Below are positions 1-12,244 of a DNA stretch of 12,244 bases, in pieces. Both the position numbers and the translations under genes were made by a program. Positions within the stretch are counted from its first letter, which is position 1, and each line of letters begins with the position of its first letter. The notes below the pieces were generated by a model. The model had not been told where the DNA came from and searched no databases. It worked only from the letters and a program-made list of their open reading frames with translations. The DNA comes from a virus (lineage: Duplodnaviria > Heunggongvirae > Uroviricota > Caudoviricetes), in the IMG/VR virus record IMGVR_UViG_2681813321_000010. One strand, given 5' to 3'.

Positions 1-138
1 TGCCTGGTGCCTCCAGGTGACGTTAACCAGTTAACAATTAACGCCGGATACAGAGAATCCACCCATAACACTGTTTTTGGTTTTAACTGTTCCGCGTGCG
101 CTCAGCCGCATTCACCGCATCACAAAATTCACTTTAAA

Positions 139-193
139 AACGGCGGCAGAGCAGTCACGGAGTAAAACTGATACCGCCAAACGTCACCAGAAA
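139..193 (-). ncRNA. dicF: DicF small RNA, copy 1: an FtsZ-translation-inhibiting sRNA with an intrinsic terminator at its 3' end.
   Basis: The minus-strand sequence is UUUCUGGUGACGUUUGGCGGUAUCAGUUUUACUCCGUGACUGCUCUGCCGCCGUUUUU. This matches my memory of the 53-nt E. coli DicF, apart from a possible 1-nt difference at the 3' end. It lies about 340 nt downstream of ydfC on the same strand, as in K-12 Qin. Confidence 0.8.
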
Positions 194-533
194 ATTGATA
201 ACAGAGGGCGTTGCAGCGGGGTTGTCGCTTAAGCGTATGGTCAACCTGACAACCCGGTGTCCTCAACGGGGAAGGAATAACCCCGCCATACTTACCGCCG
301 CGCCATTTCGCGGAGTGCCACAACCGGAAGCGCACGGTCGACGAAAATTTAACGACAGGCTATCTATGAACCAGCTACCTCGCCGTGCGCTTTCGCGTTA
401 TGGTCTGACTTTTCATGGAAATATCCTTTCAGTAAACTGTCAGTGCCGGATGCTCACCCATGTCCGGCGCACGCACTCCACCTCACCCGTGGAGAACTCC
501 TTAATTACCAACCTTAGCTTCGTTGGTTAGCTA

Positions 534-752
534 TTAACGCGGGTATGTAATCATTCTGGCAATGCTTAATGCCGCTGCTTTTTCCAGCCTGGTGATATCC
601 TGCTCCAGAGCGGACAGATTTTCAGCCTGCTTAGCCCTGGCTTCATTGGCCCATTTCAGATCCTGCGCTGCATTAATTTTCTGGCGCATCCACTCATAAA
701 GTTCATCATCGGTATAGTCTGGCGAGATGATGACGGGTTCTCGTTTCTGCAT
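534..752 (-). CDS. ydfC: YdfC-like small protein (72 aa) from the dicA-ydfABC-dicF operon.
   Basis: 72-aa ORF in the position and with the size of K-12 Qin ydfC, which follows ydfB and precedes dicF. The gene symbol rests on synteny and size, recalled from memory. Confidence 0.65.
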   Translation of the reverse strand: MQKREPVIISPDYTDDELYEWMRQKINAAQDLKWANEARAKQAENLSALEQDITRLEKAAALSIARMITYPR

Positions 753-781
753 ACTGATTCCTCGCGGTGCTGCTTCGCTTA

Positions 782-910
782 TCAGCCGTTAGATTTTGCC
801 GAGCTGGAAAGCGCCTGTTTAAACTCACTGAAGCTGAGAGCTTCTTCGCCTTCGGCAAGGCCTTCGAAGTATTCTTCGTAAGCCTTTTCCATGATTGTGT
901 CGAAATCCAT
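782..910 (-). CDS. ydfB: YdfB-like small protein (42 aa, MDFDTIMEKAYEEYFEGLAEGEEALSFSEFKQALSSSAKSNG).
   Basis: 42-codon ORF below the ORF-track size cut-off, translated by hand. A GGTGAG Shine-Dalgarno sits 5 nt upstream. Its start lies 1 nt from the ydfA stop, a translational-coupling arrangement. Size and synteny match K-12 ydfB. Confidence 0.6.
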   Translation of the reverse strand: MDFDTIMEKAYEEYFEGLAEGEEALSFSEFKQALSSSAKSNG

Positions 911-911
911 A

Positions 912-1067
912 TCACTCACCTGAGTTTCTTTCCAGCCAGCGACGGGCACCATTTTCGGTTTTAAACGTTTTGCTTCTGGTATACGTCATCGCGGTAAACG
1001 TGCCGTCCTGGTTGGGAAACACGCCGTACACCAGAGATTCGTTGTTGCCAAGATCGATAGTATCCAT
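912..1067 (-). CDS. ydfA: YdfA-like small protein (51 aa, MDTIDLGNNESLVYGVFPNQDGTFTAMTYTRSKTFKTENGARRWLERNSGE).
   Basis: An internal ATG preceded by GAGG, giving a 51-aa product that matches K-12 ydfA in length. The ORF-track entry 912..1121 is an N-terminally over-extended version. The gene sits immediately downstream of dicA on the same strand. Confidence 0.65.
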   Translation of the reverse strand: MDTIDLGNNESLVYGVFPNQDGTFTAMTYTRSKTFKTENGARRWLERNSGE

Positions 1068-1147
1068 GCTGACCTCATTTCCCCTTAACGCTGGGGTAGC
1101 GGAACTGTTTGCTGAGAACACCGTGCGGTGTGTTGATGCAAATAAGA

Positions 1148-1199
1148 TTAGCCATGGCTAACATATAGGTCAAGTGATTTTGTATGTTATGGCTAACAT
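1148..1199. promoter_or_regulatory. Operator-like palindromes distal to dicA: TTAGCcatgGCTAA (1148-1161) and ATGTTAtggcTAACAT (1184-1199).
   Basis: Both are exact inverted repeats. The half-site core TTAG(C/T)/(G/A)CTAA recurs in the dicA-dicC intergenic region. Confidence 0.45.
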
Positions 1200-1233
1200 G
1201 ATTGATGTGGTAAAAGATAACTCATTGATGATG

Positions 1234-1641
1234 TTATCTTTTATTTGTCCGCTGACGGGCTTTTAGTAATTCTTCAAAGAGTTTATTGAAGTTTTTTACT
1301 CGAGCTCGCATTTCGGCGAGCTGGGTATCCTGTTCTGATTCTGGCAGTGCATTAAACAGCTCAAGGAGCTCTAGTTCTTTGGGGGATAAGGCAACTGGCT
1401 TCTCAACAGGTGGTGTTGGTTGCTTGTCTTCATCGCCAAATAGAATCCATGTTGGTGAGCATTGCAATACTTTGCTGAGGGCAAAAAGGTTCTTCCCTGT
1501 AGGTTCACTATCATCCCGTTCCCATTGTGATACAGACACATGGGAGATTTTCAGGGCTTTAGCAAGAGACCTTTGGGTGTGTTTGAGGTTTTTCCGACGA
1601 TACCTAATGCGTTCGCCGATAGTTAAATTTTTTGTTTCCAT
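1234..1641 (-). CDS. dicA: DicA repressor. It is an XRE-family HTH protein of 135 aa with no C-terminal S24 autopeptidase domain.
   Basis: The translation METKNLTIGERIRYRRKNLKHTQRSLAKALKISHVSVSQWERDD... is recognised as E. coli DicA. It is transcribed divergently from dicC. Confidence 0.9.
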   Translation of the reverse strand: METKNLTIGERIRYRRKNLKHTQRSLAKALKISHVSVSQWERDDSEPTGKNLFALSKVLQCSPTWILFGDEDKQPTPPVEKPVALSPKELELLELFNALPESEQDTQLAEMRARVKNFNKLFEELLKARQRTNKR

Positions 1642-1643
1642 AG

Positions 1644-1710
1644 TTAGCTAATGCTAAATCGTATTGACTATGTTTTTGTTAACATCTATTTTGTTAGTTA
1701 TGACTAACAA
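1644..1710. promoter_or_regulatory. dicA/dicC divergent control region. Contains palindromes TTAGCtaatGCTAA (1644-1657), TGTTAACA (1674-1681) and the perfect 8+4+8 palindrome TTGTTAGTtatgACTAACAA (1691-1710). Also contains a candidate PdicC: TTGACT (1664-1669), a 17-bp spacer and TATTTT (1687-1692).
   Basis: The inverted repeats and the -35/-10 spacing were read directly from the sequence. The 20-bp palindrome overlaps the -10/+1 of the putative dicC promoter. Confidence 0.5.
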
Positions 1711-1724
1711 TAAAGGTGTTTTAA

Positions 1725-1955
1725 ATGCTTAAAACTGACGCTCTTTTGTATTTCGGTTCAAAAACAAAACTTGCACAAGCAGCAGGTATTCGTTTGGCTT
1801 CGCTTTATAGCTGGAAAGGGGATTTAGTTCCCGAAGGTCGCGCGATGCGTCTACAGGAGGCATCTGGCGGGGAGCTTCAGTATGATCCCAAAGTTTATGA
1901 TGAATATCGTAAGACGAAGCGGGCGGGGCGGTTGAACAATGAAAATCACTCCTGA
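1725..1955 (+). CDS. dicC: DicC, a Cro-like HTH regulator of 76 aa.
   Basis: MLKTDALLYFGSKTKLAQAAGIRLASLYSW... is recognised as DicC. AAAGGTG Shine-Dalgarno upstream. Divergent from dicA. Confidence 0.85.
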   Translation: MLKTDALLYFGSKTKLAQAAGIRLASLYSWKGDLVPEGRAMRLQEASGGELQYDPKVYDEYRKTKRAGRLNNENHS

Positions 1956-2460
1956 ACAGGCTCGTGAGGCTCTGGATGCCTGGATATGTCGACCAGGAAT
2001 GACACAGGAGCAGGCGACGATATTAATCACTGAAGCATTCTGGGCTTTGAAAGAGCGCCCGAACATCGATGTTCAGCGTGTCACAGATGAAGGTGGCGCG
2101 GTTGATCAGCGAGCGCTTGGCGTTAATCGAGTGAAGATATTCGAACGCTGGAAGGCTATCGACACCAGGGATAAGCGTGAAAAGTTCACGGCGCTAGTGC
2201 CTGCGATTATGGAGGCTATCCGGATTAGTGATTTCAGGTTGTATCGTGAGATCAGTGATGGAAAAAGTATTACGTACATGATCGCCGGGTTAAATAAAGA
2301 ATATGGCGATGTGGTGGAATCCGGACTGCTTTTTGCAGATCCTGCCGTTGTAGATCGTGAAACTGACGAACTTATAGAAAAAGCAATTGCTTTCAAGCTT
2401 GCGTATCGACAGCAATACCAACAAAAAGCTGGATGGAATTATGAGTCTTCTTTTTGCTGA
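1939..2460 (+). CDS. ydfX: YdfX-like early-operon protein of 173 aa. It overlaps the dicC stop by 17 nt, which suggests translational coupling. Function unknown; possibly a CII/YdaT-like regulator.
   Basis: Long ORF with a start inside the dicC 3' end, paralogous to 6316..6837. In K-12 a truncated pseudogene, ydfX, directly follows dicC. The symbol rests on that synteny, recalled from memory. Confidence 0.6.
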   Translation: MKITPEQAREALDAWICRPGMTQEQATILITEAFWALKERPNIDVQRVTDEGGAVDQRALGVNRVKIFERWKAIDTRDKREKFTALVPAIMEAIRISDFRLYREISDGKSITYMIAGLNKEYGDVVESGLLFADPAVVDRETDELIEKAIAFKLAYRQQYQQKAGWNYESSFC

Positions 2461-3406
2461 ACGCCCACTGGTTATAAACACGCAGCTGGCAATGAAAATT
2501 GGCTTAAACGAAGCCATTGTTTTGCAACAACTGCACTACTGGTTGAGAGATACCAACTCCGGCATGGAATGTGATGGTGTTCGCTGGATTTATAACACAA
2601 CGGAACAATGGCTGGAACAGTTCCCATTCTGGTCAGAGTCAACGTTAAAGCGCGCGTTTGCAAGTCTGAAAACGCTGGGGCTTTTGCGTTGTGAAAAGCT
2701 CAATAAATCAAAGCGCGATATGACCAATTTCTACACGATCAACTACGGGAGCGAGCTTTTAGATGGTGGCAAATTGAGCGAATCCATCGGTTTAAAATGC
2801 GCCGCTCCATCAGGTCAAAATGACACGATGGAAGAGGTCAAAATGAAACGCTCCATTGGTTCAAAACGACTCAATGTCATCGGGTCAAAATGGCCTGATG
2901 ATCTTACAGAGAATACAACAGAGATTACTACAGAGAATAAAAAGACTTCTCGTCCGGAAGCTTCGCAACCGGACCCGCAGACGGTTGAACAGGATTTTTT
3001 AACCCGACACCCTGACGCGGTTGTGTTCAGTGCGAAAAAACGCCAGTGGGGCAGCCAGGAAGATTTGGCGTGTGCGCAGTGGATCTGGGGGCGAATCGTG
3101 AGTCTTTACGAGCAGGCCGCCAGCGATGATGGCGAGATTTCGCGACCGAAAGAACCCAACTGGACCGCATGGGCCAACGACGTGCGCACAATGCGGATGC
3201 TGGATGGCAGAACTCACAGACAAATTTGTGAAATGTTTGGTCGGGTGCAGCGGGATCCATTCTGGGTAAAAAATATCATGAGTCCGTCAAAGCTTCGCGA
3301 AAAATGGGATGAACTGGTTATCCGCCTGGGGCGTTCGTCTGTACAGCGTTGTGTGAATCATATTTCTGAGCCGGATACCGAAATTCCGCCGGGCTTCAGG
3401 GGGTAA
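2441..3406 (+). CDS. Lambda-O-like replication initiator or replisome organizer (321 aa from ATG 2441). Its N-terminal domain is winged-helix-like, a low-complexity linker is encoded by the iteron array, and a C-terminal domain follows.
   Basis: The ORF track gives a TTG start at 2387, but the ATG at 2441 overlaps the upstream stop by 20 nt and is the likelier start. The N-terminus LVINTQLAMKIGLNEAIVLQQLHYWL is typical of phage replication initiators. The in-gene iterons plus the AT-rich tract mirror the ori inside lambda gene O. Confidence 0.7.
   Translation: MSLLFAERPLVINTQLAMKIGLNEAIVLQQLHYWLRDTNSGMECDGVRWIYNTTEQWLEQFPFWSESTLKRAFASLKTLGLLRCEKLNKSKRDMTNFYTINYGSELLDGGKLSESIGLKCAAPSGQNDTMEEVKMKRSIGSKRLNVIGSKWPDDLTENTTEITTENKKTSRPEASQPDPQTVEQDFLTRHPDAVVFSAKKRQWGSQEDLACAQWIWGRIVSLYEQAASDDGEISRPKEPNWTAWANDVRTMRMLDGRTHRQICEMFGRVQRDPFWVKNIMSPSKLREKWDELVIRLGRSSVQRCVNHISEPDTEIPPGFRG
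2789..2950. repeat. ori-like iteron array inside the O-like gene. Five GGT(C/T)(A/T)AAA(T/C)G repeats with 22-25 bp periodicity (starts 2789, 2813, 2836, 2858, 2883), followed by an AT-rich ACAGAGAATA-repeat tract (2901-2950).
   Basis: Counted directly from the sequence. The encoded protein shows the matching repeats GQN/SIGSKR/VIGSKW. Confidence 0.6.
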
Positions 3407-3446
3407 GTGTTAATTTCTGGTCATGAGGTAATTTTCAGGAGGGCTT

Positions 3447-3869
3447 GTGGCAAAAGTTTTTACACAAGAAGAGCGGGAAAAAATTAAAGGGCAGGTTGTT
3501 GAACTCGTACGCCGGAGTGGGCGTGAGACGTTACGGCAACTGGAAGTCAAGACAGGTGCGACAAGATATCTGATGAGCGTTCTCGCAAGAGAGCTGGTTG
3601 CCAGCGGCGATGTATACAACTCTGGTTACGGGTTATTCCCGTCTGAACAGGCGCGTAAGGACTGGCAAAATGCCCGTAAAAAGCTCTCAAGGGCAAAGCT
3701 GAAGGAACCATCTGCGGTTGATCCGGACCTTATCTGGTCATTACCTGACGGAGAAATACGTCGCTACGACAGGCGTCAGAACATAATCTGTCGCGAGTGC
3801 CGGAAGAGTGAAGTTATGCAGCGCATACTAGCATTCTATCAGGGAAATGCTCGATATTTATTGAAGTGA
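3447..3869 (+). CDS. Conserved 140-aa protein downstream of the O-like gene. GTG start; function unknown. It occupies the position where a helicase loader (P/DnaC-like) would be expected.
   Basis: AGGAGGG Shine-Dalgarno 6 nt upstream of the GTG. Paralogue 7824..8231 is about 90% identical. Basic C-terminus with a single CxxC. Confidence 0.6.
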   Translation: MAKVFTQEEREKIKGQVVELVRRSGRETLRQLEVKTGATRYLMSVLARELVASGDVYNSGYGLFPSEQARKDWQNARKKLSRAKLKEPSAVDPDLIWSLPDGEIRRYDRRQNIICRECRKSEVMQRILAFYQGNARYLLK

Positions 3870-4121
3870 TGAGATTAAAGTTTATTAGTTCAGATATTGA
3901 TTGGCTCTTTTGTGGAGTAGGGTAGAGTTAGTGTGTTTGTCTGCTTGGTGCCAGCAGCGGATATGTTTAACAACAGAAAGCATTCAGCATGGTTAGTGGA
4001 TTTGCAAAGTGGATTAGGATTTGAGAAACTTTGATGAAGTTGTAAAGCTTGTTTCTATAAAAATAGAAATTTAACTAATAGTTAAACACACCTCCAGCTT
4101 CATTGAAAAGGATTATTAGCT

Positions 4122-4547
4122 ATGATTGATCCACTTATTAGAAACTTACAGAGTGATATTGCACTACTCCAGCTTTATATCGCGCAACGCAAACAGGCAG
4201 GCTTTCATGACATGGAAAGAATAATTGAGTCATTGACCATCTTTATGTTTCGCGCGCTGAAAATGGGTGAACTGGTAAACATGAATCAGATTAAAGTTAA
4301 TTTTCCCGCCATTGATTTAGCTGATAATAAAAACATGATAGCAGTTCAAGTTACTACGAATGCAAGTCCAGCAAAAATTAAAAAAACTATCGAATCTTTT
4401 GAGAAAATAAATGAAATAGGAGAGAGTCTGAAAGATAAATACTCTACTTTATATATTTTTGGTTTTAACTGTTCCGCGTGCGCTCAGCCGCATTCACCGC
4501 ATCACAAAATTCACTTTAAAAACGGCGGCAGAGCAGTCACGGAGTAA
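4122..4547 (+). CDS. AT-rich 141-aa ORF, possibly a truncated or chimeric N-terminal domain of an abortive-infection-type protein. It tentatively resembles a SMEK-type N-terminal domain. The last ~30 codons are encoded by the direct repeat.
   Basis: AAGGA Shine-Dalgarno 9 nt upstream. GC content is visibly far below the flanking sequence. The region from 4456 onward is shared with 74-165, where a different upstream reading frame fuses to the same tail FGFNCSACAQPHSPHHKIHFKNGGRAVTE. The stop codon lies inside the DicF copy-2 terminator on the opposite strand. Confidence 0.5.
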   Translation: MIDPLIRNLQSDIALLQLYIAQRKQAGFHDMERIIESLTIFMFRALKMGELVNMNQIKVNFPAIDLADNKNMIAVQVTTNASPAKIKKTIESFEKINEIGESLKDKYSTLYIFGFNCSACAQPHSPHHKIHFKNGGRAVTE

Positions 4548-4575
4548 AACTGATACCGCCAAACGTCACCAGAAA
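4521..4575 (-). ncRNA. dicF: DicF small RNA, copy 2. Identical to copy 1.
   Basis: Same sequence as 139-193, offset 4382. Confidence 0.8.
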
Positions 4576-4915
4576 ATTGATAACAGAGGGCGTTGCAGCG
4601 GGGTTGTCGCTTAAGCGTATGGTCAACCTGACAACCCGGTGTCCTCAACGGGGAAGGAATAACCCCGCCATACTTACCGCCGCGCCATTTCGCGGAGTGC
4701 CACAACCGGAAGCGCACGGTCGACGAAAATTTAACGACAGGCTATCTATGAACCAGCTACCTCGCCGTGCGCTTTCGCGTTATGGTCTGACTTTTCATGG
4801 AAATATCCTTTCAGTAAACTGTCAGTGCCGGATGCTCACCCATGTCCGGCGCACGCACTCCACCTCACCCGTGGAGAACTCCTTAATTACCAACCTTAGC
4901 TTCGTTGGTTAGCTA

Positions 4916-5134
4916 TTAACGCGGGTATGTAATCATTCTGGCAATGCTTAATGCCGCTGCTTTTTCCAGCCTGGTGATATCCTGCTCCAGAGCGGACAGA
5001 TTTTCAGCCTGCTTAGCCCTGGCTTCATTGGCCCATTTCAGATCCTGCGCTGCATTAATTTTCTGGCGCATCCACTCATAAAGTTCATCATCGGTATAGT
5101 CTGGCGAGATGATGACGGGTTCTCGTTTCTGCAT
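4916..5134 (-). CDS. ydfC: YdfC-like protein, copy 2. Identical to copy 1.
   Basis: Identical translation to 534..752. Confidence 0.65.
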   Translation of the reverse strand: MQKREPVIISPDYTDDELYEWMRQKINAAQDLKWANEARAKQAENLSALEQDITRLEKAAALSIARMITYPR

Positions 5135-5163
5135 ACTGATTCCTCGCGGTGCTGCTTCGCTTA

Positions 5164-5292
5164 TCAGCCGTTAGATTTTGCCGAGCTGGAAAGCGCCTGT
5201 TTAAACTCACTGAAGCTGAGAGCTTCTTCGCCTTCGGCAAGGCCTTCGAAGTATTCTTCGTAAGCCTTTTCCATGATTGTGTCGAAATCCAT
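5164..5292 (-). CDS. ydfB: YdfB-like 42-aa protein, copy 2.
   Basis: Offset copy of 782..910. Confidence 0.6.
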   Translation of the reverse strand: MDFDTIMEKAYEEYFEGLAEGEEALSFSEFKQALSSSAKSNG

Positions 5293-5293
5293 A

Positions 5294-5449
5294 TCACTCA
5301 CCTGAGTTTCTTTCCAGCCAGCGACGGGCACCATTTTCGGTTTTAAACGTTTTGCTTCTGGTATACGTCATCGCGGTAAACGTGCCGTCCTGGTTGGGAA
5401 ACACGCCGCATACCAGAGATTCGTTGTTGCCAAGATCGATAGTATTCAT
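5294..5449 (-). CDS. ydfA: YdfA-like 51-aa protein, copy 2 (D2N and Y14C relative to copy 1).
   Basis: Offset copy of 912..1067. The two amino-acid differences fall in the substitution cluster near the repeat boundary. Confidence 0.65.
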   Translation of the reverse strand: MNTIDLGNNESLVCGVFPNQDGTFTAMTYTRSKTFKTENGARRWLERNSGE

Positions 5450-5561
5450 GCTGACCTCATTTCCCCTTAACGCCGGGGTAGCGGAACTGTTTGCTGAGAA
5501 CACCGTGCGGTGTCTTGGTGGAGATTAATTTAGAATAACCTAACAAATGTAGCAAGTATTT

Positions 5562-5581
5562 TTGTTAGATTGGTCTAACAA
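5562..5581. promoter_or_regulatory. Operator-like 8+4+8 palindrome TTGTTAGAttggTCTAACAA distal to dicA'. An additional CCTAACAA half-site lies at 5539-5546.
   Basis: Exact inverted repeat. It has the same architecture as the module-A sites but different specificity positions (GA/TC instead of GT/AC). Confidence 0.45.
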
Positions 5582-5616
5582 AAAGAGTGAGGGAATCTAA
5601 GTATCTGAAAGGAGTG

Positions 5617-6024
5617 TTATTTTATTGATTTGTTTTTACGTGCTTTAAGCATTTCTTCGAAGAGTTTATTGAAATTCTCTACTCTTGCGCGCATTTCAGA
5701 CAGTAAGGCTTCCTGCTCGGAGGAGGGAAGAGCATCGAATAATTCGATCAATTCTTTGTGGCTGGGAGTTAACTCGGTTTCCACATGAAGTTCTTGTGCT
5801 GGCACTGGTGCCTTGTCTTCGTCACCAAACATTAGCCATGTAGGCGAGCACTTCAGCGCATCAGCTAAAGCAAATAACCGCTTCCCGACCGGTTGGGTTT
5901 CGTCTCTTTCCCATTGTGAAATTGTGACGTGAGCTACCCCAGCGAGGCGTGCAGCTTCTCGTTGTGTTAGGCGTAATTCTTTTCGTCGTGCCAGAACTCG
6001 CTGGCCTAGGGTTCTTGTATCCAT
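5617..6024 (-). CDS. Second, hetero-immune DicA-type repressor (135 aa). It has a different HTH recognition region and is about 55% identical to DicA.
   Basis: MDTRTLGQRVLARRKELRLTQREAARLAGVAHVTISQWERDE... shows the same domain layout and C-terminal half as DicA. The N-terminal DNA-binding half is substituted. Confidence 0.85.
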   Translation of the reverse strand: MDTRTLGQRVLARRKELRLTQREAARLAGVAHVTISQWERDETQPVGKRLFALADALKCSPTWLMFGDEDKAPVPAQELHVETELTPSHKELIELFDALPSSEQEALLSEMRARVENFNKLFEEMLKARKNKSIK

Positions 6025-6047
6025 AGTTAGGTAATTCTAATTTTTCT

Positions 6048-6092
6048 TGACTTAGGTATCCCGCGCACATTACTGTTAGGAATATCTAACAA
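6048..6092. promoter_or_regulatory. dicA'/dicC' control region. Contains a candidate -35 TTGACT (6048-6053) and the imperfect 8+4+8 palindrome cTGTTAGGaataTCTAACAa (6073-6092), directly upstream of the dicC' GAGGGGG Shine-Dalgarno.
   Basis: Read from the sequence. 6 of 8 arm positions are complementary. Confidence 0.4.
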
Positions 6093-6104
6093 GAGGGGGC
6101 TTTG

Positions 6105-6332
6105 ATGCTTAAAGTTGACGCAATTACTTTTTTTGGCAGCAAAACAAAACTTGCCAATGCCGCAGGAGTGAAACTGGCAAGTGTTGCTGCATGGGGGGAA
6201 CTGGTTCCTGAAGGTCGCGCGATGCGCCTGCAAGAGGCATCCGGCGGGGAACTTCAGTACGACCCCAAAGTTTATGACGAATATCGTAAGGCAAAGCGGG
6301 CGGGGCGGTTGAACAATGAAAATCACCCCTGA
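6105..6332 (+). CDS. Second DicC/Cro-like regulator (75 aa from the ATG at 6105). Its N-terminal HTH is diverged and its C-terminal half is identical to DicC.
   Basis: GAGGGGG Shine-Dalgarno. The ORF-track start at 6102 is a TTG one codon upstream. Confidence 0.8.
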   Translation: MLKVDAITFFGSKTKLANAAGVKLASVAAWGELVPEGRAMRLQEASGGELQYDPKVYDEYRKAKRAGRLNNENHP

Positions 6333-6837
6333 ACAGGTTTGTGAGGCTCTGGATGCCTGGGTATGCCGACCAGGAATGACACAGGAGCAGGCGACGATAT
6401 TAATCACGGAAGCATTCTGGGCTCTGAAAGAACGCCCGAACATCGATGTTCAACGCGTCACGTTTAATGATGGCGAGGTTGATCAACGGGCGTTGGGCGT
6501 TAACCGGGTGAAGATATTCGAACGCTGGAAAGCTATCGACACCAGGGATAAGCGGGAAAAATTCACGGCGCTGATTCCGGCAATTATGGAGGCTATCCGG
6601 ATCAGCGATTTCAGGTTGTATTGTGAAATTACTGACGGAAAAAGCATTACGTACATGATCGCCGGGTTAAACAAAGAATATGGTGATGTGGTGGAGTCCG
6701 GGCTGCTTTTTGCGGATCCATCTGTTGTGGAACGTGAGACTGACGAGCTTATAGAAAAAGCTATTGCTTTCAAGCATGCGTATCGTCAGCAATACCAACA
6801 AAAAGCTGGATGGAATTATGAGCCTTCTTTTTGCTGA
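6316..6837 (+). CDS. ydfX: YdfX-like 173-aa protein, module B. It overlaps the dicC' stop by 17 nt, as in module A.
   Basis: About 90% identical to 1939..2460. Confidence 0.6.
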   Translation: MKITPEQVCEALDAWVCRPGMTQEQATILITEAFWALKERPNIDVQRVTFNDGEVDQRALGVNRVKIFERWKAIDTRDKREKFTALIPAIMEAIRISDFRLYCEITDGKSITYMIAGLNKEYGDVVESGLLFADPSVVERETDELIEKAIAFKHAYRQQYQQKAGWNYEPSFC

Positions 6838-7783
6838 ACGCCCACTGGTTATAAACACACAGCTTGCGATGAAGATTGGCTTAAATGAAGCCATTGTGTT
6901 GCAGCAGTTGCATTACTGGTTGAGAGATACCAGTTCCGGTATGGAATGTGACGGGGTTCGCTGGATTTATAACACAACAGAACAATGGCTGGAACAGTTC
7001 CCGTTCTGGTCAGAGTCAACGTTAAAACGCGCATTTGCAAGTCTGAAAACGCTGGGGCTTTTGCGTTGCGAAAAGCTCAACAAATCAAAGCGTGATATGA
7101 CTAATTTTTACACGATTAATTACGAGAGTGAGCTTTTAGATGGTGGCAAAGTGAGCGAATCCATCAGGTCAAAATGCGCCGCTCCATCGGGTCAAAATGA
7201 CACGATGGAAGAGGTCAAAATGGCACGCTCCATTGGTTCAAAACGACCCAATGTCATCGGGTCAAAATGGCCTGATGATCTTACAGAGAATACAACAGAG
7301 ATTACTACAGAGAATAAAAACACTTCTCGTCCGGAAGCTTCGCAACCGGACCCGCAGACGGCTGAACAGGATTTTTTAACCCGACACCCTGACGCGGTTG
7401 TGTTCAGTGCGAAAAAACGCCAGTGGGGAAGTCAGGAAGATTTGGCGTGCGCACAGTGGATCTGGGGACGAATCGTGAGTCTTTACGAGCAGGCTGCCAG
7501 CGATGATGGCGAGATCACGCGACCGAAAGAACCAAACTGGACCGCATGGGCCAATGACGTGCGCACAATGCGGATGCTGGATGGCAGAAGCCACAGACAA
7601 ATTTGCGAAATGTTTGGTCGGGTACAGCGAGATCCATTCTGGGTAAAAAACATCATGAGCCCGTCAAAGCTTCGCGAAAAATGGGACGACCTGGTCATCC
7701 GCCTGGGGCGTTCACCTGTACAGTGTTGTGTGAATCATATTTCTGAACCGGATACCGAAATTCCGCCTGGTTTCAGGGGATAA
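6818..7783 (+). CDS. O-like replication initiator, module B (321 aa from ATG 6818).
   Basis: Paralogue of 2441..3406 with the same overlapping start context. Confidence 0.7.
   Translation: MSLLFAERPLVINTQLAMKIGLNEAIVLQQLHYWLRDTSSGMECDGVRWIYNTTEQWLEQFPFWSESTLKRAFASLKTLGLLRCEKLNKSKRDMTNFYTINYESELLDGGKVSESIRSKCAAPSGQNDTMEEVKMARSIGSKRPNVIGSKWPDDLTENTTEITTENKNTSRPEASQPDPQTAEQDFLTRHPDAVVFSAKKRQWGSQEDLACAQWIWGRIVSLYEQAASDDGEITRPKEPNWTAWANDVRTMRMLDGRSHRQICEMFGRVQRDPFWVKNIMSPSKLREKWDDLVIRLGRSPVQCCVNHISEPDTEIPPGFRG
7167..7327. repeat. ori-like iteron array, module B. Five GGT(C/T)CAAAA(T/C)G repeats (starts 7167, 7190, 7213, 7235, 7260) followed by an AT-rich ACAGAGAATA tract.
   Basis: Counted directly. 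Same periodicity as module A. Confidence 0.6.
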
Positions 7784-7823
7784 GTGGTGATTTTAGGGCA
7801 TAAAGTAATGTTCAGGAGGACTT

Positions 7824-8231
7824 ATGGCAAAAGTATTTACACAGGAAGAGCGGGAAAAAATTAAAGGACAGGTGGTGGAACTCGTGCGCCAGAGCGGTCG
7901 TGAGACGTTACGGCAACTGGAAGCTAAAACAGGTGCGACAAGATATCTGATGAGCGTTCTTGCCAGAGAGCTGGTTGCCAGTGGTGATGTATATCACTCT
8001 GGCTATGGGGTGTTCCCGTCAGAACGGGCTCGTAAGGACTGGCAAAACGCCCGCAAAAAACTCTCGAGGGCAAAGGTGAAGAAACCTGTTGTGGTTGATC
8101 CGGGCCTTATCTGGACATTACCCGACGGAGAAATACGCCGCTACGACAGGCGTATGAACATAATCTGTCGCGAGTGCCGGAAGAGCGAAGTTATGCAGCG
8201 TGTATTGGCGTTCTATCAGGGATATGCCTAG
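7824..8231 (+). CDS. Conserved 135-aa protein downstream of the O-like gene, module B.
   Basis: AGGAGGA Shine-Dalgarno. Paralogue of 3447..3869 with a shorter C-terminus. Confidence 0.6.
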   Translation: MAKVFTQEEREKIKGQVVELVRQSGRETLRQLEAKTGATRYLMSVLARELVASGDVYHSGYGVFPSERARKDWQNARKKLSRAKVKKPVVVDPGLIWTLPDGEIRRYDRRMNIICRECRKSEVMQRVLAFYQGYA

Positions 8232-8277
8232 AATTGTCACAGGTAATGAAATTAAAGAGTATTGGTTCGGATATGAA

Positions 8278-8307
8278 TTGACATTTTCGCGGCACAGAGC
8301 TAAAAAT
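8278..8307 (+). promoter_or_regulatory. Candidate sigma70 promoter at the start of the AT-rich island: TTGACA (8278-8283), a 17-bp spacer and TAAAAAT.
   Basis: Consensus -35 with canonical spacing, read from the sequence. It would give a ~300-nt leader before the SIR2-family ORF. Confidence 0.3.
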
Positions 8308-8599
8308 AGCCTACTTGTTGGTTTTGTGTGAAAAGCAGACATTTTGAGGCTCAGGATTTGTTATCAAATAAGACCAATACTTATCTATATTAATACACAT
8401 TAAATACTGTGCAATACATTATTGCATTTTATTAGATAAGCGATATTTAGGGAAAAGAAAAGTCATAGAAAACAGGCCGCTATTTGTTGTTGGATTTTAT
8501 AGGCTATATCTAGATTATCTTGCCACTGCGGTCTCTGTTTACCTAACAGCTTGGGCTTCTTTGCATGCAAGTTTGTAATAACAAGAGTAATCAAACGGA

Positions 8600-9631
8600 A
8601 TGTCTATTAATCCTAAACTTAAGCGTATCGCGCGACGCTATCCAGCGTTATTCCAATATGAGTCCCCCTATATGGCAAGAAAATTAATAATATTCGGCAA
8701 CGGTCTCGGTATGGCTTTAGATCCTGCTCACTTCTCCTTAGACAGAGCGTTGGAAGAAATTTGGCATCGCCCCAATTTTTTAAAAGATATCCACAAGCAA
8801 CTTATCGAGCGTTGTCTTCAGCGGCAAGGTCCACCAGAAGGAGAACATGAGTTGGATACCCTTCACCAGGCTGTCACATATTGTAAAGCTCTTGCTCAAA
8901 TTGGAGAGGGGAACGTGCATTGGCTTACTGAAGATGGACTAAACTTCCCCAAAATTACCGCCACTTATATTCACAAAGTTGCAACCAGGTTGCATAATTA
9001 CGATAAAGGTTTGCCACAAAGATTCGAAAATGCGCTTGTGGAGTTTGTAAAGAACACACACTCACATATCGCGACATTAAACTATGACAAATTATTATAC
9101 AATTCATTCATAGATAATGATATATTCAACGGGTATGATGGGGTTTTAGTTGATGGGATGCTAAGCCACGGATTTTCCTCTGCAGCGCTCGAACGGAAAT
9201 ACAATCGTAGGTTTGGTTATTATTTGCACTTGCATGGTTCACCACTATTTATTAATCAGCATGAAAATGTTTTAAAACTTTCACGCTCACAACTTACTCT
9301 TGACATAGATGAACCTAGTGAGCATATAGTGTTAACTCATATAAAAAGAAAACCGTCAGTTATAGCAGCATCTAATGTTCTTTCTACGTACTGGGATTAT
9401 TTGCAGTTTGCATTATTTGAATCAGAAGAAATAATATTGTTTGGTTACTCTGGTCTCGATATTCACCTTAACCTGCTTATTCGACCTTACCTAACCTCTA
9501 AGCCTTTAAGAGTAATTGAGTGGAGCGGTGCTGGTGAACAAAACGCTCGTGAGATATATTGGAAAAACCAGTTGAGACGGGAAGTTACTGTAATTAGGTT
9601 GGATAACATCACTGATTTTATTGATTGGTAG
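8600..9631 (+). CDS. Stand-alone SIR2-family (SIR2_2/ThsA-like NAD+-hydrolase fold) protein of 343 aa in an AT-rich island. Candidate anti-phage defence effector.
   Basis: Motifs seen in the translation: LIIFGNGLGMAL (Rossmann-like N-terminal loop), IATLNYD (the TTNYD-type catalytic Asn motif), YLHLHGS (catalytic His motif) and ILFGYSGLD (the FxGYSxxD motif). GC content is clearly lower than in the flanking phage genes. No SLOG, TIR, STAND or HerA partner is encoded nearby. Confidence 0.75.
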   Translation: MSINPKLKRIARRYPALFQYESPYMARKLIIFGNGLGMALDPAHFSLDRALEEIWHRPNFLKDIHKQLIERCLQRQGPPEGEHELDTLHQAVTYCKALAQIGEGNVHWLTEDGLNFPKITATYIHKVATRLHNYDKGLPQRFENALVEFVKNTHSHIATLNYDKLLYNSFIDNDIFNGYDGVLVDGMLSHGFSSAALERKYNRRFGYYLHLHGSPLFINQHENVLKLSRSQLTLDIDEPSEHIVLTHIKRKPSVIAASNVLSTYWDYLQFALFESEEIILFGYSGLDIHLNLLIRPYLTSKPLRVIEWSGAGEQNAREIYWKNQLRREVTVIRLDNITDFIDW

Positions 9632-9701
9632 CGCAATGCGAAGTTAAAGAGGCAGCCTCATATTTATCAGAGCTGGTGTACGTCCAATACAGGAGGTTAT
9701 C

Positions 9702-9791
9702 GTGCTGGTTCTCAAATGCGCGCTGGCTATTGCGGCTGTAGTGGCAATTTATTGTCTTGCTATTGTTCTTATGGATCGCCTTTCTGATTGA
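9702..9791 (+). CDS. Putative 29-aa hydrophobic single-TM peptide (MLVLKCALAIAAVVAIYCLAIVLMDRLSD). GTG start.
   Basis: Consensus AGGAGG 7 nt upstream of the GTG. The product has uniform hydrophobic composition and charged ends. It was not in the ORF track because it is below the size cut-off. Confidence 0.35.
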   Translation: MLVLKCALAIAAVVAIYCLAIVLMDRLSD

Positions 9792-10002
9792 TTTTATATT
9801 GGCGAGGTGACGGGAGTTAAGTAGAATTGCTGCGGGTGCTTGAGGCTGTCTGCCTCGGGCATGCCACCGTAAGGCAGACAGAGAAAAGCCCCAGTTAACA
9901 TTACGCGTCCTGCAAGACGCTTAACATTAATCTGAGGCCCAATCTATGCTTCACAAACGTAGGTTAGCCTCTTACGCGCCGAAAGGCAAGGAGAAGCAGG
10001 CT

Positions 10003-10158
10003 ATGAAGCAGCAAAAGGCGATGTTAATCGCCCTGATCGTCATCTGTTTAACCGTCATAGTGACGGCACTGGTAACGAGGAAAGACCTCTGCGAGGTACG
10101 AATCCGAACCGGCCAGACGGAGGTCGCTGTCTTCACAGCTTACGAACCTGAGGAGTAA
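10003..10158 (+). CDS. hokD: HokD (RelF), a Hok/Gef-family type I toxin of 51 aa. An in-frame upstream start at 9946 gives a 70-codon mok-like reading frame.
   Basis: MKQQKAMLIALIVICLTVIVTALVTRKDLCEVRIRTGQTEVAVFTAYEPEE is recognised as the Hok family and specifically HokD. AAGGAG Shine-Dalgarno. The leader contains a 10-bp-stem hairpin (9846-9881) typical of hok mRNAs. Confidence 0.85.
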   Translation: MKQQKAMLIALIVICLTVIVTALVTRKDLCEVRIRTGQTEVAVFTAYEPEE

Positions 10159-10226
10159 GAGACCAGGCGGGGGAGAAATCCCTCGCCACCGCTGATGTGT
10201 CAGGCATCCTCAACGCACCCGCACTT

Positions 10227-10258
10227 AACCCGCTTCGGCGGGTTTTTGTTTTTATTTT
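10227..10258 (+). terminator. Rho-independent terminator of the hokD transcript.
   Basis: CCCGC-TTCG-GCGGG stem-loop followed by TTTTTGTTTTTATTTT. Confidence 0.8.
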
Positions 10259-10374
10259 CAACGCATTTGAAGTTCTGGACGGTGTCGGAATAGAATCAAA
10301 AATACTTAAGTAGCGCGCAGGGATAAGAGGGATGGTCCCTTAAAGGGGAGAGCTAATTATCCGGAAGGATTCTG

Positions 10375-10626
10375 ATGATGAACATCGAAGAACTGCGTAA
10401 AATTTTTTGTGAAGATGGCCTCTATGCTGTGTGCGTTGAAAATGGAAATATTGTTAGTCATTACCGCATTGTGTGTTTGCGAAAGAATGGGGCTGCGTTA
10501 ATTAATTTTGTGGATGGTCGAGTGACAGACGGATTTATCTTGCGCGAAGGTGAGTTTGTCACTTCATTACAGGCACTGAAAGAGATCGGAATAAAAGCTG
10601 GCTTTTCTGCTTTTTCAGAAGAATAA
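10375..10626 (+). CDS. rem: Rem-like 83-aa protein.
   Basis: Size and position (between hokD and ydfU) match K-12 Qin rem. GGAAGG Shine-Dalgarno. The symbol rests on synteny and length, recalled from memory. Confidence 0.6.
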   Translation: MMNIEELRKIFCEDGLYAVCVENGNIVSHYRIVCLRKNGAALINFVDGRVTDGFILREGEFVTSLQALKEIGIKAGFSAFSEE

Positions 10627-10692
10627 ACTCATCTACAATCTTGCGCGGGGCTGAACTCCCGCTGAGTAACACCGTGCCGCCGGAGGAAACCG

Positions 10693-10971
10693 ATGGCACG
10701 CAACGCAAAATATTACAATCATGATAATTCGACCGTTCTTGCCCACACGCACGAGCGGTATTCTCACGCATTTAAGTCAGACTGGTACCAGCATCCCCCA
10801 TGCACTGAAGAACAGGCCGAATGGCTCATTCAGTGTTACCGCAGGCGCGGATGCGAGGTTAAAAAAGCCCTTAGCCTCGACTACCGTCACTGGATAATCT
10901 CCGTCGGGCTTCCTTACTCCGAACGCCCACCGCGTCTGTCCCGCACATTCCAGCAACGCATCTGGAGGTAA
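10693..10971 (+). CDS. Hypothetical 92-aa protein, translationally coupled to the downstream DUF968 gene.
   Basis: GGAGGA Shine-Dalgarno 5 nt upstream. The stop lies 1 nt before the next gene's start. Confidence 0.55.
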   Translation: MARNAKYYNHDNSTVLAHTHERYSHAFKSDWYQHPPCTEEQAEWLIQCYRRRGCEVKKALSLDYRHWIISVGLPYSERPPRLSRTFQQRIWR

Positions 10972-10972
10972 C

Positions 10973-12022
10973 GTGCGGGTATTACTTCGACCTGTTCTGG
11001 TACCGGAACTCGGGCTGGTGGTCCTTAAGCCCGGTCGCGAATCACTGCCGGTTTTTCATTGCGGCAGGGTGCTGGTGGAGCCGGAACCGAAAAGCATGCG
11101 CGGTCTGCCGTCCGGAGTCGTCCCTGCCGTTCGCCAGCCGCTGGCGGAGGATAAATCATTACTGCCATTTTTCAGCGATGAGCGTGTGATTCGTGCTGCT
11201 GGCGGCGCTGGCGCACTGTCTGACTGGCTCCTGCGTCATGTCAAATCCTGCCAGTGGCCTCATGGTGACTACCATCACAGTGAAACCGTCATACATCGTT
11301 ATGGTACCGGCGCAATGGTGTTGTGCTGGCACTGCGACAACCAGCTGCGCGACCAGACCTCCGAATCACTCGGGCAACTTGCTCACCAAAACCTGTCTGC
11401 ATGGATGATTGACGTCATACGCCATGCAATGAATGGCTCGCAGGAACGGGAATTATCGCTGGCTGAATTATCCTGGTGGGCGATCCGCAATCAGGTGGCG
11501 GACGCGCTACCGGAAGCGGTATTACGTCGTTCGCTGGGGTTGCGTGCGGAAAAAATCCGCTCAATGTACCGTGAAAGCGACATCGTACCGGGAGAGCAGA
11601 CCGCCACCAGCATACTGAAACAGCGCACAAAAAATCTTGCGCCGCTGCCTCACGCCCACCAGCAACAGAACCCGCCACAGGAAAAGACGGTGGTCAGCAT
11701 TGCTGTTGATCCGGAGTCTCCGGAATCTTTAATGAAGCGACCTAAACGTCGCCGTTGGGTAAATGAGAAATATACGCGCTGGGTAAAGACACAGCCGTGT
11801 GCGTGTTGTGGTAAGCCAGCCGACGATCCCCATCACCTGATTGGTCATGGTCAGGGCGGAATAGGGACAAAAGCCCACGATATTTTCACGCTACCGTTGT
11901 GCCGGGAGCATCACAACGAACTTCATGCTGATCCGCTGGCATTTGAAGAAAAGCATGGTTCCCAGATTGATTTAATTTTTCGTTTTCTTGATCGCGCCTT
12001 TGCAACCGGCGTGCTCGGGTAA
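10973..12022 (+). CDS. ydfU: DUF968-family lambdoid protein (YdfU/YdaW-like, 349 aa) with a C-terminal Cys/His-rich HNH-like motif.
   Basis: C-terminus CACCGKPADDPHHLIGHGQGG...LCREHHNELH. GGAGG Shine-Dalgarno before the GTG. Length and synteny with rem and hokD match Qin ydfU. Confidence 0.75.
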   Translation: MRVLLRPVLVPELGLVVLKPGRESLPVFHCGRVLVEPEPKSMRGLPSGVVPAVRQPLAEDKSLLPFFSDERVIRAAGGAGALSDWLLRHVKSCQWPHGDYHHSETVIHRYGTGAMVLCWHCDNQLRDQTSESLGQLAHQNLSAWMIDVIRHAMNGSQERELSLAELSWWAIRNQVADALPEAVLRRSLGLRAEKIRSMYRESDIVPGEQTATSILKQRTKNLAPLPHAHQQQNPPQEKTVVSIAVDPESPESLMKRPKRRRWVNEKYTRWVKTQPCACCGKPADDPHHLIGHGQGGIGTKAHDIFTLPLCREHHNELHADPLAFEEKHGSQIDLIFRFLDRAFATGVLG

Positions 12023-12034
12023 AAGAGGTTACTG

Positions 12035-12244
12035 ATGCGTATAGAGTTTGTTTTGCCTTACCCGCCGACGGTGAACACCTACTGGCGACGTCGTGGCAGC
12101 ACATATTTTGTGTCAAAAGCCGGTGAGCGTTATCGCCGGGATGTGGCACTTATTGTTCGCCAGCAGCGGCTGAAATTAAACCTGTCCGGAAGGCTGGCGA
12201 TAAAGATTATTGCAGAGCCACCGGATAAGCGCCGCCGCGACCTG
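12035..12244 (+). CDS. rusA: RusA-family Holliday-junction resolvase, 5' partial. It runs off the window end.
   Basis: LPYPPTVNTYW...YRRDVALIV...IKIIAEPPDKRRRDL matches the RusA pattern, including the PDxRRRDLDN motif. AAGAGG Shine-Dalgarno. Confidence 0.8.
   Translation, partial: MRIEFVLPYPPTVNTYWRRRGSTYFVSKAGERYRRDVALIVRQQRLKLNLSGRLAIKIIAEPPDKRRRDL

What the first reader, a model, noticed from the sequence alone, without database searches (positions are those of the whole stretch)
3870..4575. Foreign AT-rich insert at the module junction: a chimeric ORF whose tail is the repeat and which is antisense to the DicF terminator
Homology between the modules ends at about 3920. The next ~540 bp, up to 4455, are AT-rich and encode a 141-aa ORF (4122-4547).

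From 4456 onward the ORF continues into the direct repeat. Its C-terminal 30 residues, and its stop at 4545-4547, therefore lie within the region complementary to DicF copy 2 (4521-4575). At the left copy, a different upstream reading frame (1-165) is open into the same tail. The junction at TTTTTGGTTTTAAC thus looks like a recombination point that truncated a larger gene.

The N-terminal region has a motif, NFPAIDLADNKNMIAVQVTT, that I tentatively associate with SMEK-type N-terminal domains of abortive-infection proteins. That recall is unverified. Full-length proteins of this kind would carry a C-terminal effector that is missing here.

Convergent transcription from this ORF would produce RNA perfectly complementary to the 3' half of DicF. 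That RNA could act as an antisense sponge or a terminator-collision element.
Basis: partly seen in the sequence, partly recalled or inferred. Interest (0 to 1): 0.65.

Follow-up and report, generated by a model that had tools for sequence, protein, structure and literature searches.

The report
Truncated SMEK gene at prophage junction
The AT-rich stretch is the front 38% of an ordinary 299-residue prophage gene (a SMEK-domain, restriction-nuclease-like protein), cut off where 3.4 kb copied from one resident E. coli prophage was spliced into another through an 11-base match next to the DicF small-RNA gene. It is most likely a recombination scar, not a new regulator.

Summary
ORF 4122-4547 (141 aa) is chimeric. 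Codons 1-115 are the 5' part of a 299-aa SMEK-domain gene, and the last 26 codons are read from the antisense strand of the dicF-dicB spacer and the DicF terminator hairpin.

The window is a composite of two lambdoid prophages that sit separately in E. coli O111:H2 12A and FDAARGOS_1059:
- 1-1026 and 4456-12244 match the SIR2-carrying prophage "B" of 12A at 100%.
- 1027-4466 matches the SMEK-carrying prophage "A" (1 mismatch to 12A, 0 to FDAARGOS_1059).
- Deleting 1027-5408 restores prophage B exactly.

There are two joints. One is homologous (1003-1026). The other is an 11-bp microhomology, TTTTTGGTTTT (4456-4466), inside the conserved IFGF motif. This junction was not found in any collection searched.

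All full-length homologues are about 293-305 aa with a conserved C-terminal half, so the gene is truncated. The SMEK recall was right, but SMEK_N is itself the nuclease-like domain (PD-(D/E)xK/Mrr). The lost part is a conserved helical domain of unknown role.

DicF copy 2 and its terminator are intact but have lost dicB. The antisense-sponge idea is possible but has no supporting evidence. Verdict: a recent recombination scar and pseudogene, of low to moderate interest.

The parts
3447..3869 (+). DUF977 family gene, the last backbone gene of module 1. Module-to-module homology fades just after its stop codon.
   Evidence: ORF; RefSeq annotation of the identical parent locus; homology ends at 3903/8280.
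3870..4121 (+). AT-rich native leader of the SMEK gene, with AGGA 9 nt before the ATG. No convincing sigma-70 consensus was found.
   Evidence: GC 0.345; 100% identical to the sequence upstream of intact SMEK genes; promoter scan empty here.
4122..4547 (+). Chimeric 141-aa ORF: SMEK codons 1-115, a 26-codon non-native tail, and the stop codon at 4545-4547.
   Evidence: SMEK_N hits; alignment with the intact gene; AF2 pLDDT falls to 56, 43 and 31 over residues 121-141.
4122..4466 (+). 5' fragment (residues 1-115 of 299) of the SMEK-domain, PD-(D/E)xK-like nuclease gene. All invariant N-domain residues are kept (E36, N60, D65, Q76, T78, K85, T89, Y107, G114, F115). The cut falls inside core strand 109-118.
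4456..4466 (.). Joint J2: the 11-bp microhomology TTTTTGGTTTT, shared by SMEK codons 112-115 and the dicF-dicB spacer.
   Evidence: Three-way alignment; longest identity available between the parents.
4467..4522 (-). Retained native sequence 3' of DicF copy 2, including the U-run GUUUUUAAAG directly after the hairpin. dicB, which normally follows, is absent.
   Evidence: Sequence; identical to the left copy and to parent B; native gene order ydfC-dicF-dicB.
4523..4574 (-). DicF sRNA gene, copy 2. It belongs to the leftward ydfA-ydfB-ydfC-dicF operon of module 2.
   Evidence: Rfam RF00039, 72.5 bits, E 9.2e-15, full model 1-52.
4456..5408 (.). Right copy of the 953-bp repeat R (spacer, dicF, ydfC, ydfB, part of ydfA), of the prophage B type.
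   Evidence: 100% identical to 74-1026 and to L002.
74..1026 (.). Left copy of repeat R. It is also of the B type: 100% to parent B, about 97% to parent A.
   Evidence: 26 consecutive B-type informative sites.
1003..1026 (.). Joint J1: the homologous crossover interval where the sequence switches from parent B to parent A, inside the ydfA (DUF1391) gene.
   Evidence: Last B-type site at 1002, first A-type site at 1027. This hybrid is absent from complete genomes (best 99.0%).
141..192 (-). DicF sRNA gene, copy 1, in its native context leading towards dicB.
   Evidence: window 1-73 is the dicF-dicB spacer of all three reference prophages.
7..165 (+). Left-copy ORF with the same tail: an accidental open frame antisense to the spacer and DicF. 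It is not annotated in the reference genomes.
   Evidence: no CDS at the corresponding place.
8600..9631 (+). SIR2-family gene. In module 2 it occupies the same AT-rich cargo slot after the DUF977 gene.
   Evidence: Pfam SIR2_2 1e-05; PADLOC SIR2-type hits; RefSeq 'SIR2 family protein'; GC 0.391.

Best explanation
The region is a recombination scar. It arose in a strain closely related to E. coli O111:H2 12A and FDAARGOS_1059, which carries two related DicB/Qin-type lambdoid prophages. Prophage A has a SMEK cargo gene and prophage B has a SIR2 cargo gene.

A 3.4-kb stretch of A (ydfA' to the first 115 codons of SMEK) was copied into B. One joint, J1 (1003-1026), lies in homologous sequence. 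The other, J2 (4456-4466), is an 11-bp microhomology, TTTTTGGTTTT, between SMEK codons 112-115 and B's dicF-dicB spacer. Because re-entry into B was 953 bp 'behind' the exit point, that stretch (spacer-dicF-ydfC-ydfB-ydfA') is duplicated.

The pattern B to A to B, with a homologous joint, a microhomology joint and a flanking duplication, is what template switching predicts. This could be replication template switching or microhomology-mediated break-induced replication, or recombination between replicating phage genomes. This mechanism is inferred, not shown.

Consequences that the sequence shows directly:
- The SMEK gene loses residues 116-299. That is the last strand and helices of its nuclease-fold domain plus the whole conserved C-terminal helical domain. 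It gains 26 meaningless codons that end in the loop of the DicF terminator hairpin.
- Prophage A's cargo beyond the joint (the rest of SMEK and the genes that follow it in A) was not copied into this composite.
- The prophage now has two immunity regions and two identical dicF genes.
- dicF copy 2 keeps its operon, hairpin and U-run, but is followed by the SMEK fragment in convergent orientation instead of dicB.

Most likely the 141-aa ORF is a non-functional pseudogene remnant. Any antisense transcription over DicF would be an unselected by-product. Both of these points are inferred.
For: - Parentage: window 4456-12244 and 1-1026 match L002 (12A prophage B) at 100%. Window 1027-4466 matches L003 (12A prophage A) with 1 mismatch and FDAARGOS_1059 at 3440/3440.
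- Removing 1027-5408 gives 7862/7862 identity to 12A prophage B.
- The switch in informative sites is clean: 26 B-type sites, then A-type sites.
- J2 is an 11-bp overlap, and 11 bp is the longest identity available between the parental segments.
- The intact gene is 299 aa. 108 homologues, nearly all of 293-305 aa, are conserved end to end, including H158, H165, P166, D169, R182, H187, E192 and G193 in the lost half.
- In the AF2 model the cut is inside strand 109-118, and the tail is predicted with low confidence.
- Neither joint, nor the chimeric protein, was found in 5,426 complete E. coli genomes, GTDB representatives, IMG/VR, JGI metagenomes, phage records or the gene-position index. This fits a recent, lineage-private event.
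Against: - The source genome and its reads are unknown, so an assembly or amplification chimera cannot be excluded.
- No expression data exist, so 'non-functional' is an inference.
- All invariant residues of the N-terminal nuclease-like domain are retained, with the native leader and Shine-Dalgarno sequence. A stable N-domain fragment is therefore not excluded.
- The order and mechanism of the two joints cannot be determined from one sequence. One complex event is as possible as two successive events.
Confidence: 0.8

Rival explanations
1. Assembly or amplification artefact. The composite does not exist in the cell. A chimeric read or contig joined the two resident prophages.
For: Both parents exist as separate, intact prophages in the nearest complete genomes. 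Neither joint is seen anywhere else. The 953-bp repeat and the related backbones are the kind of sequence that confuses assemblers.
Against: J2 has only 11 bp of overlap. That is too short for a k-mer or overlap mis-join, and a ligation chimera would not be expected to fall on the longest microhomology available. The structure needs two coordinated joints that leave a clean B to A to B path with no stray bases.
Confidence: 0.09
2. Transcription from the SMEK leader runs through the lost gene end into dicF, making RNA fully complementary to DicF. This RNA acts as an antisense sponge (RNase III substrate) or collides with leftward transcription, lowering DicF output.
For: The geometry is right. 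The ORF is convergent with dicF and overlaps its nt 28-52. Nothing resembling an intrinsic terminator lies on the + strand between 4547 and 4939. Both DicF copies are identical, so such an RNA could also act in trans. Cargo genes of this kind are often expressed in lysogens (general knowledge, not tested here).
Against: No promoter consensus was found in 3870-4121, and the one + strand match (4428-4457) is within chance (1 found, 2.7 expected). The dicBF operon is normally repressed by DicA-type repressors (established knowledge), so there may be little DicF to antagonise. The junction is unique, so nothing indicates selection. The same antisense frame is open at the native left copy without any annotated gene.
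Confidence: 0.07
3. The truncated protein is functional as a free-standing SMEK/Mrr-like nuclease domain. It could be deregulated, or act as a dominant-negative partner of intact SMEK proteins.
Against: The domain, as defined by Pfam (140 positions) and by the solved Kordia Mrr domain, runs to about residue 140. The cut removes strand 127-130 and helix 132-142. Apart from a few fragments and partial records (for example P0035, 187 aa; P0107, 166 aa), none of the 108 homologues lacks the C-terminal half. The tail is low-confidence junk. A deregulated nuclease would be counter-selected.
Confidence: 0.04

Closest known systems
SMEK domain-containing proteins of enterobacterial prophages and defence islands (e.g. 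WP_000566848.1, 299 aa; NCBIfam NF033859, Pfam PF21941)
   Same: Residues 1-115 are identical to the intact E. coli protein (the DNA matches the intact gene at 100%). The leader, upstream neighbour (DUF977 gene) and AT-rich composition are the same.
   Different: It lacks residues 116-299, that is the end of the nuclease-fold domain and the conserved C-terminal helical bundle. It carries 26 unrelated residues instead.
Mrr/SMEK nuclease domain of short-pAgo partners (Kordia jejudonensis Mrr-APAZ, PDB 26bh; SMEK-APAZ in PMC10810196)
   Same: The N-terminal domain is homologous: profile E 1.6e-13 over positions 20-140, with the shared motif NFPAIDLAD...AxQ(V/I)T(S/T). PADLOC hits the N-terminal part of Aga_REase models.
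   Different: The PADLOC match stops at model position 143 of 463, so no APAZ domain is matched. There is no Argonaute gene next to it in the prophage, and only one of three distant homologue loci has a PIWI-free but otherwise unrelated neighbourhood. The family is a stand-alone gene.
dicBF operon of the Qin prophage (ydfABC-dicF-dicB-ydfD) and the multi-copy DicF of pathogenic E. coli
   Same: DicF copy 2 has the full Rfam model, hairpin and U-run, and sits in the 3' UTR of ydfC as in K-12 (PMC9438474).
   Different: dicB and ydfD are replaced by a convergent gene fragment. The two copies lie 4,382 bp apart in one prophage rather than in separate prophages.
Mosaic joints of lambdoid phages, and microhomology-mediated templated insertions (MMBIR/FoSTeS type)
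   Same: Short microhomology at the novel joint, an insert copied from a second locus in the same genome, and duplication of flanking sequence.
   Different: Here both parents are still identifiable at 99.97-100% identity in sister genomes, so the event is seen 'fresh'. The mechanism itself is inferred, not observed.

Membership tests
SMEK domain-containing protein (NF033859 / PF21941) | N-terminal SMEK_N domain above the curated cut-offs | tested here: met
   107.9 bits against a cut-off of 30; 80.8 bits against 27.
SMEK domain-containing protein (NF033859 / PF21941) | Invariant residues of this 299-aa subfamily (E36, N60, D65, Q76, T78, K85, T89, Y107, G114, F115) | tested here: met
   All are present in the window ORF, which is one row of the 50-sequence alignment.
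SMEK domain-containing protein (NF033859 / PF21941) | Full subfamily architecture: about 293-305 aa with a conserved C-terminal helical domain | tested here: not met
   The ORF departs from the family after residue 115. Homologue lengths and coverage are, and the lost conserved columns. It is a gene fragment, not an intact member.
PD-(D/E)xK (restriction-endonuclease/Mrr) fold | Alpha-beta-beta-beta-alpha-beta core with acidic and Lys/Gln motif residues; structural similarity to solved nucleases | tested here: met
Short pAgo / nuclease-APAZ system | APAZ domain fused to the nuclease domain, and an adjacent short Argonaute gene | tested here: not met
   The PADLOC match is limited to model positions 9-143 of 463. 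Neighbours are the DUF977 gene and a methyltransferase gene in E. coli, and various unrelated genes elsewhere.
Abortive-infection / anti-phage defence gene | Demonstrated protection against phage; match to a known defence-system model | not testable with these tools
   The only PADLOC hit is to the nuclease domain. The context is suggestive: a variable cargo slot also used by SIR2, and neighbours such as Abi_alpha, SLATT_5 and SymE. This is a lead, not a test.
DicF RNA (RF00039) | Covariance-model score above gathering, terminator hairpin followed by a U-run, location 3' of ydfC | tested here: met
   72.5 bits against 48, model 1-52. The U-run is visible in the sequence. ydfC lies at 4916-5134(-).
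Cis-antisense RNA / sRNA sponge | A promoter and transcript on the opposite strand covering the sRNA; conservation of the arrangement | tested here: inconclusive
   Complementarity is a given. The promoter scan shows nothing above chance. The arrangement was found in no other sequence. Transcription cannot be tested here.
Microhomology-mediated templated insertion | Microhomology at the joint, a donor locus elsewhere in the genome, flanking duplication | tested here: met
   11-bp overlap; donor and recipient at 99.97-100% identity in 12A and FDAARGOS_1059; 953-bp duplication. The molecular pathway itself is not testable here.

The most novel reading that the evidence does not exclude
The scar accidentally built a new regulatory circuit. 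If the SMEK leader is active in the lysogen, it now has no gene end or terminator. It would then transcribe through dicF and ydfC on the wrong strand, giving an RNA perfectly complementary to every identical DicF copy in the cell. This would dampen DicF-dependent control of ftsZ, manX and pchA in this lineage, and the second immunity region would make the prophage doubly immune.
Probability: 0.07. Interest if true: 0.5.

Novelty: new member of a known kind. Interest (0 to 1): 0.25.

Why it matters
It is a clean, datable example of how lambdoid prophages are remodelled. Both parents survive intact in sister genomes. The event can therefore be reconstructed to the base: one homologous joint, one 11-bp microhomology joint and a 953-bp duplication. 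The result is a prophage with two immunity regions and two dicF genes.

For annotation, it shows that ORF 4122-4547 should be called a 3'-truncated SMEK pseudogene, not a small novel protein. It also shows that the open frame antisense to DicF is incidental.

It further flags the 299-aa SMEK family as an uncharacterised stand-alone candidate defence gene. That family combines an Mrr-like nuclease domain with a conserved helical domain, and it occupies the same prophage cargo slot as a SIR2 gene.

Tried and rejected
1. Searches for the junction elsewhere all found nothing:
- complete E. coli genomes, where the best coverage stops at 4466;
- GTDB representative genomes;
- IMG/VR;
- JGI metagenomes;
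- phage records, which match only the DicF side;
- an exact look-up of the 141-aa product.

2. I tested whether joint J1 is a pre-existing natural mosaic, so that a single event would suffice. No complete genome has it (best 99.0%), so I treat both joints as private to this lineage.

4. Promoter and terminator scans of the window and of the intact locus were uninformative.

5. RNA folds of both strands around DicF were no better than shuffles (z -0.57 and -0.93). I draw nothing from them, except that the sequence up to the joint is native.

6. I first equated the left-copy ORF 7-165 with RefSeq hypothetical WP_001340038.1. On checking coordinates, that CDS maps to window 367-531, which is another frame between dicF and ydfC. 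The claim is withdrawn (note 2).

7. I considered the convergent methyltransferase beside intact SMEK as a restriction-modification partner. It is rejected as a conserved partner because distant homologues have unrelated neighbours.

Full report
**What is in the sequence**

The window holds two head-to-tail copies of the early region of a DicB/Qin-type lambdoid prophage. On the minus strand each copy runs repressor, ydfA, ydfB, ydfC, dicF. On the plus strand each runs dicC/cro-like, ydaT, a replication-type gene and a DUF977 gene.

Rfam finds DicF at 141-192(-) and 4523-4574(-), each at 72.5 bits, and a sok RNA at 9834-10008.

The two copies align from 74/4456 to 3903/8280. Identity along that alignment varies:
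- 100% for 953 bp (74-1026 = 4456-5408);
- about 50-65% across the repressor/cro region;
- 84-98% across ydaT to the DUF977 gene.

Between the copies lies 3870-4455, with GC 0.341 against about 0.48-0.53 for the backbone. ORF 4122-4547 (141 aa) starts there and runs into the second repeat copy.

**What the ORF is**

Its first 115 residues are the N-terminus of a 299-aa protein that RefSeq calls 'SMEK domain-containing protein' (WP_000566848.1). Window 3870-4466 is 100% identical to that locus in many complete E. coli genomes, and every match stops at 4466.
- NCBIfam SMEK_N scores 107.9 bits (E 1.8e-31).
- Pfam SMEK_N scores 80.8 bits (E 1.1e-22).

A three-way alignment shows that the intact gene and the dicF-dicB spacer share exactly TTTTTGGTTTT (4456-4466). 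This encodes I-F-G-F, a conserved motif of the family. To the left of it the window follows the SMEK gene; to the right it follows the spacer.

The ORF therefore has 115 native residues plus 26 non-native ones (NCSACAQPHSPHHKIHFKNGGRAVTE). Only codons 134-141 and the stop overlap DicF, at its nt 28-52. The TAA falls in the loop of the terminator hairpin. The same antisense frame is open at the left copy (ORF 7-165), and no gene is annotated at the corresponding place in the reference genomes.

**Is the gene truncated?**

Yes. A search of 5.8 billion proteins returned 108 relatives across Enterobacterales, Pseudomonas, Vibrio, Xanthomonas, Cupriavidus and others. Nearly all are 293-305 aa and cover 96-100% of the query.

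In a 50-sequence alignment the second half is as conserved as the first. Near-invariant residues include H158, H165, P166, D169, R182, H187, E192, G193 and K221.

**What SMEK_N is**

A profile of the family matches the solved 'Mrr domain from Kordia jejudonensis Mrr-APAZ pAgo' (26bh_D) at E 1.6e-13 over profile positions 20-140. The two share NFPAIDLAD...A(V/F)Q(V/I)T(S/T)...K.

[quoted passage not shown] Another paper calls such proteins restriction endonucleases (PMC10318531).

An AlphaFold model of the intact protein (pLDDT 86.4) shows two parts:
- an N-terminal alpha/beta domain, with strands 66-68, 73-81, 109-118 and 127-130 and helices up to about 157;
- a C-terminal helical bundle, residues 169-287.

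So the retained part is the nuclease-like module. It is cut inside strand 109-118 and lacks its last strand and helices. The lost C-terminal domain has no assignable function. In the model of the chimera, confidence falls to 56, 43 and 31 over the tail.

There is no APAZ match and no Argonaute neighbour. Distant homologues sit beside varied genes (SLATT_5, Abi_alpha, SymE, DUF87 ATPase) with no fixed partner. The family looks like a stand-alone cargo or candidate defence gene, but its function is untested.

**Where the arrangement came from**

E. coli O111:H2 strain 12A carries two separate prophages of this type. Prophage B carries a SIR2 gene after the DUF977 gene (L002). Prophage A carries SMEK, a methyltransferase gene and a hypothetical gene in the same slot (L003).

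The window matches them as follows:

| Window segment | Match |
|---|---|
| 4456-12244 | B of 12A, 100% |
| 1-1026 | B of 12A, 100% (about 97% to A) |
| 1027-4466 | A of 12A, one mismatch at 1710 |
| 1027-4466 | A of FDAARGOS_1059, 3440/3440 |
| B-type parts | B of FDAARGOS_1059, one difference at window 9222 |

Informative sites switch cleanly from 26 B-type to A-type between 1002 and 1027. Deleting 1027-5408 from the window reproduces 12A's prophage B at 7862/7862.

The window is therefore prophage B with a 4,382-bp addition: 3.4 kb copied from A plus a second copy of the 953-bp segment R. The addition is bounded by a homologous joint J1 (1003-1026) and a microhomology joint J2 (4456-4466).

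Eleven bases is the longest identity that exists between the relevant parts of A and B. There are five shared 11-mers and no 12-mer, and shuffles give about 3.5 shared 11-mers. The joint thus used one of the best microhomologies available.

Neither joint occurs in 5,426 complete E. coli genomes, GTDB representatives, IMG/VR, JGI metagenomes or phage records. The chimeric protein is not on record either.

In both reference chromosomes A and B lie about 1.2 Mb apart in opposite orientation. A simple reciprocal crossover would give an inversion, not this structure. A copy-type event fits best. Candidates are template switching or microhomology-mediated break-induced replication, or recombination between replicating phage genomes. 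This is inference.

**Consequences**

Shown by the sequence:
- The SMEK gene is 3'-truncated.
- The A cargo beyond the joint (the rest of SMEK and the genes that follow it in A) was not copied into the composite.
- The composite has two different repressor/cro pairs (1234-1641/1725-1955 and 5617-6024/6102-6332).
- It has two identical dicF genes.
- dicF copy 2 keeps ydfABC upstream, its hairpin, its U-run and 57-67 nt of native 3' sequence, but has lost dicB and ydfD.

Established knowledge: DicF is made from the ydfABC-dicF-dicB transcript by early Rho-independent termination plus RNase E processing, or by RNase III processing of the full-length RNA (PMC9438474).

Inferred:
- The elements for the 53-nt form are intact at copy 2.
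- Read-through transcripts from module 2 now run antisense into the SMEK fragment and module 1.
- Any rightward transcription from module 1 or from a SMEK promoter would run antisense over dicF and ydfC.

**The antisense idea**

The geometry allows it. However, no promoter stands out in 3870-4121, and the single + strand consensus match (4428-4457) is within chance. The intact locus is equally uninformative, and RNA folds are no better than shuffles. The arrangement is unique, so there is no evolutionary support. I rate a physiologically relevant antisense effect at about 7%.

**Verdict**

The 'truncated larger gene' and 'SMEK' parts of the interpretation are correct. The 'foreign insert' and 'missing effector' parts are not, and the regulatory reading is unsupported.

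The feature is a recent, lineage-private recombination scar that left a SMEK pseudogene abutting an intact DicF gene. It is a new instance of a known kind of event. The main residual doubt is an assembly artefact (about 9%), which spanning reads would settle.

Noticed in passing
window 1234-1955 and 5617-6332: The composite prophage carries two different immunity regions. One is a DicA/DicC pair annotated as such in RefSeq. The other is a divergent HTH/Cro-CI pair that is only about 50-65% identical at the DNA level. One prophage may therefore confer two immunities and place its two dicF operons under different repressors.
   Followed up: partly
window 8232-9830 (SIR2 ORF 8600-9631): In module 2 the AT-rich slot after the DUF977 gene holds a SIR2-family gene (Pfam SIR2_2; PADLOC Aga_SIR2, PDC-S21 and SIR2 hits). 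Prophage A holds SMEK, a methyltransferase gene and a hypothetical gene in the same slot. This looks like a variable defence-cargo hotspot between DUF977 and hok/sok. RefSeq starts the SIR2 CDS 72 nt later (about 8672) than the longest ORF.
   Followed up: partly
window 9834-10008 (+), ORF 9946-10158: A complete hok/sok type I toxin-antitoxin locus: Rfam sok at 116.2 bits, and hokD annotated in the parent prophage.
   Followed up: no
window 195-530 and 4577-4912 (+): A 111-aa open frame lies between dicF and ydfC on the opposite strand. Its last 54 residues are annotated as hypothetical protein WP_001340038.1 in strain C7 but not in 12A. It is probably a spurious call.
   Followed up: partly
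window 1710 and 9222: These are the only base differences from the reference parents. At 1710 the window has A and 12A has G; this lies in the dicA-dicC intergenic operator/promoter region, and FDAARGOS_1059 has the window's base. At 9222 the window has A and FDAARGOS_1059 has G; this lies inside the SIR2 gene, and 12A has the window's base.
   Followed up: partly
window 4456-4574 (-): The minimum-energy fold of DicF plus its 67-nt 3' flank pairs the 3' half of DicF with the downstream spacer in a long alternative hairpin. It could be the RNase III substrate of read-through transcripts, and it ends only about 6 nt before the recombination joint. The fold is not better than shuffles (z -0.57).
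   Followed up: no
L004 5001-8736, L007 5001-6755, L010 5001-6369: Distant 299-aa SMEK homologues sit next to SLATT_5, Abi_alpha or SymE-toxin genes in Pseudomonas, Vibrio and Cupriavidus. This suggests that the family rides in defence or toxin islands as a single gene.
   Followed up: partly
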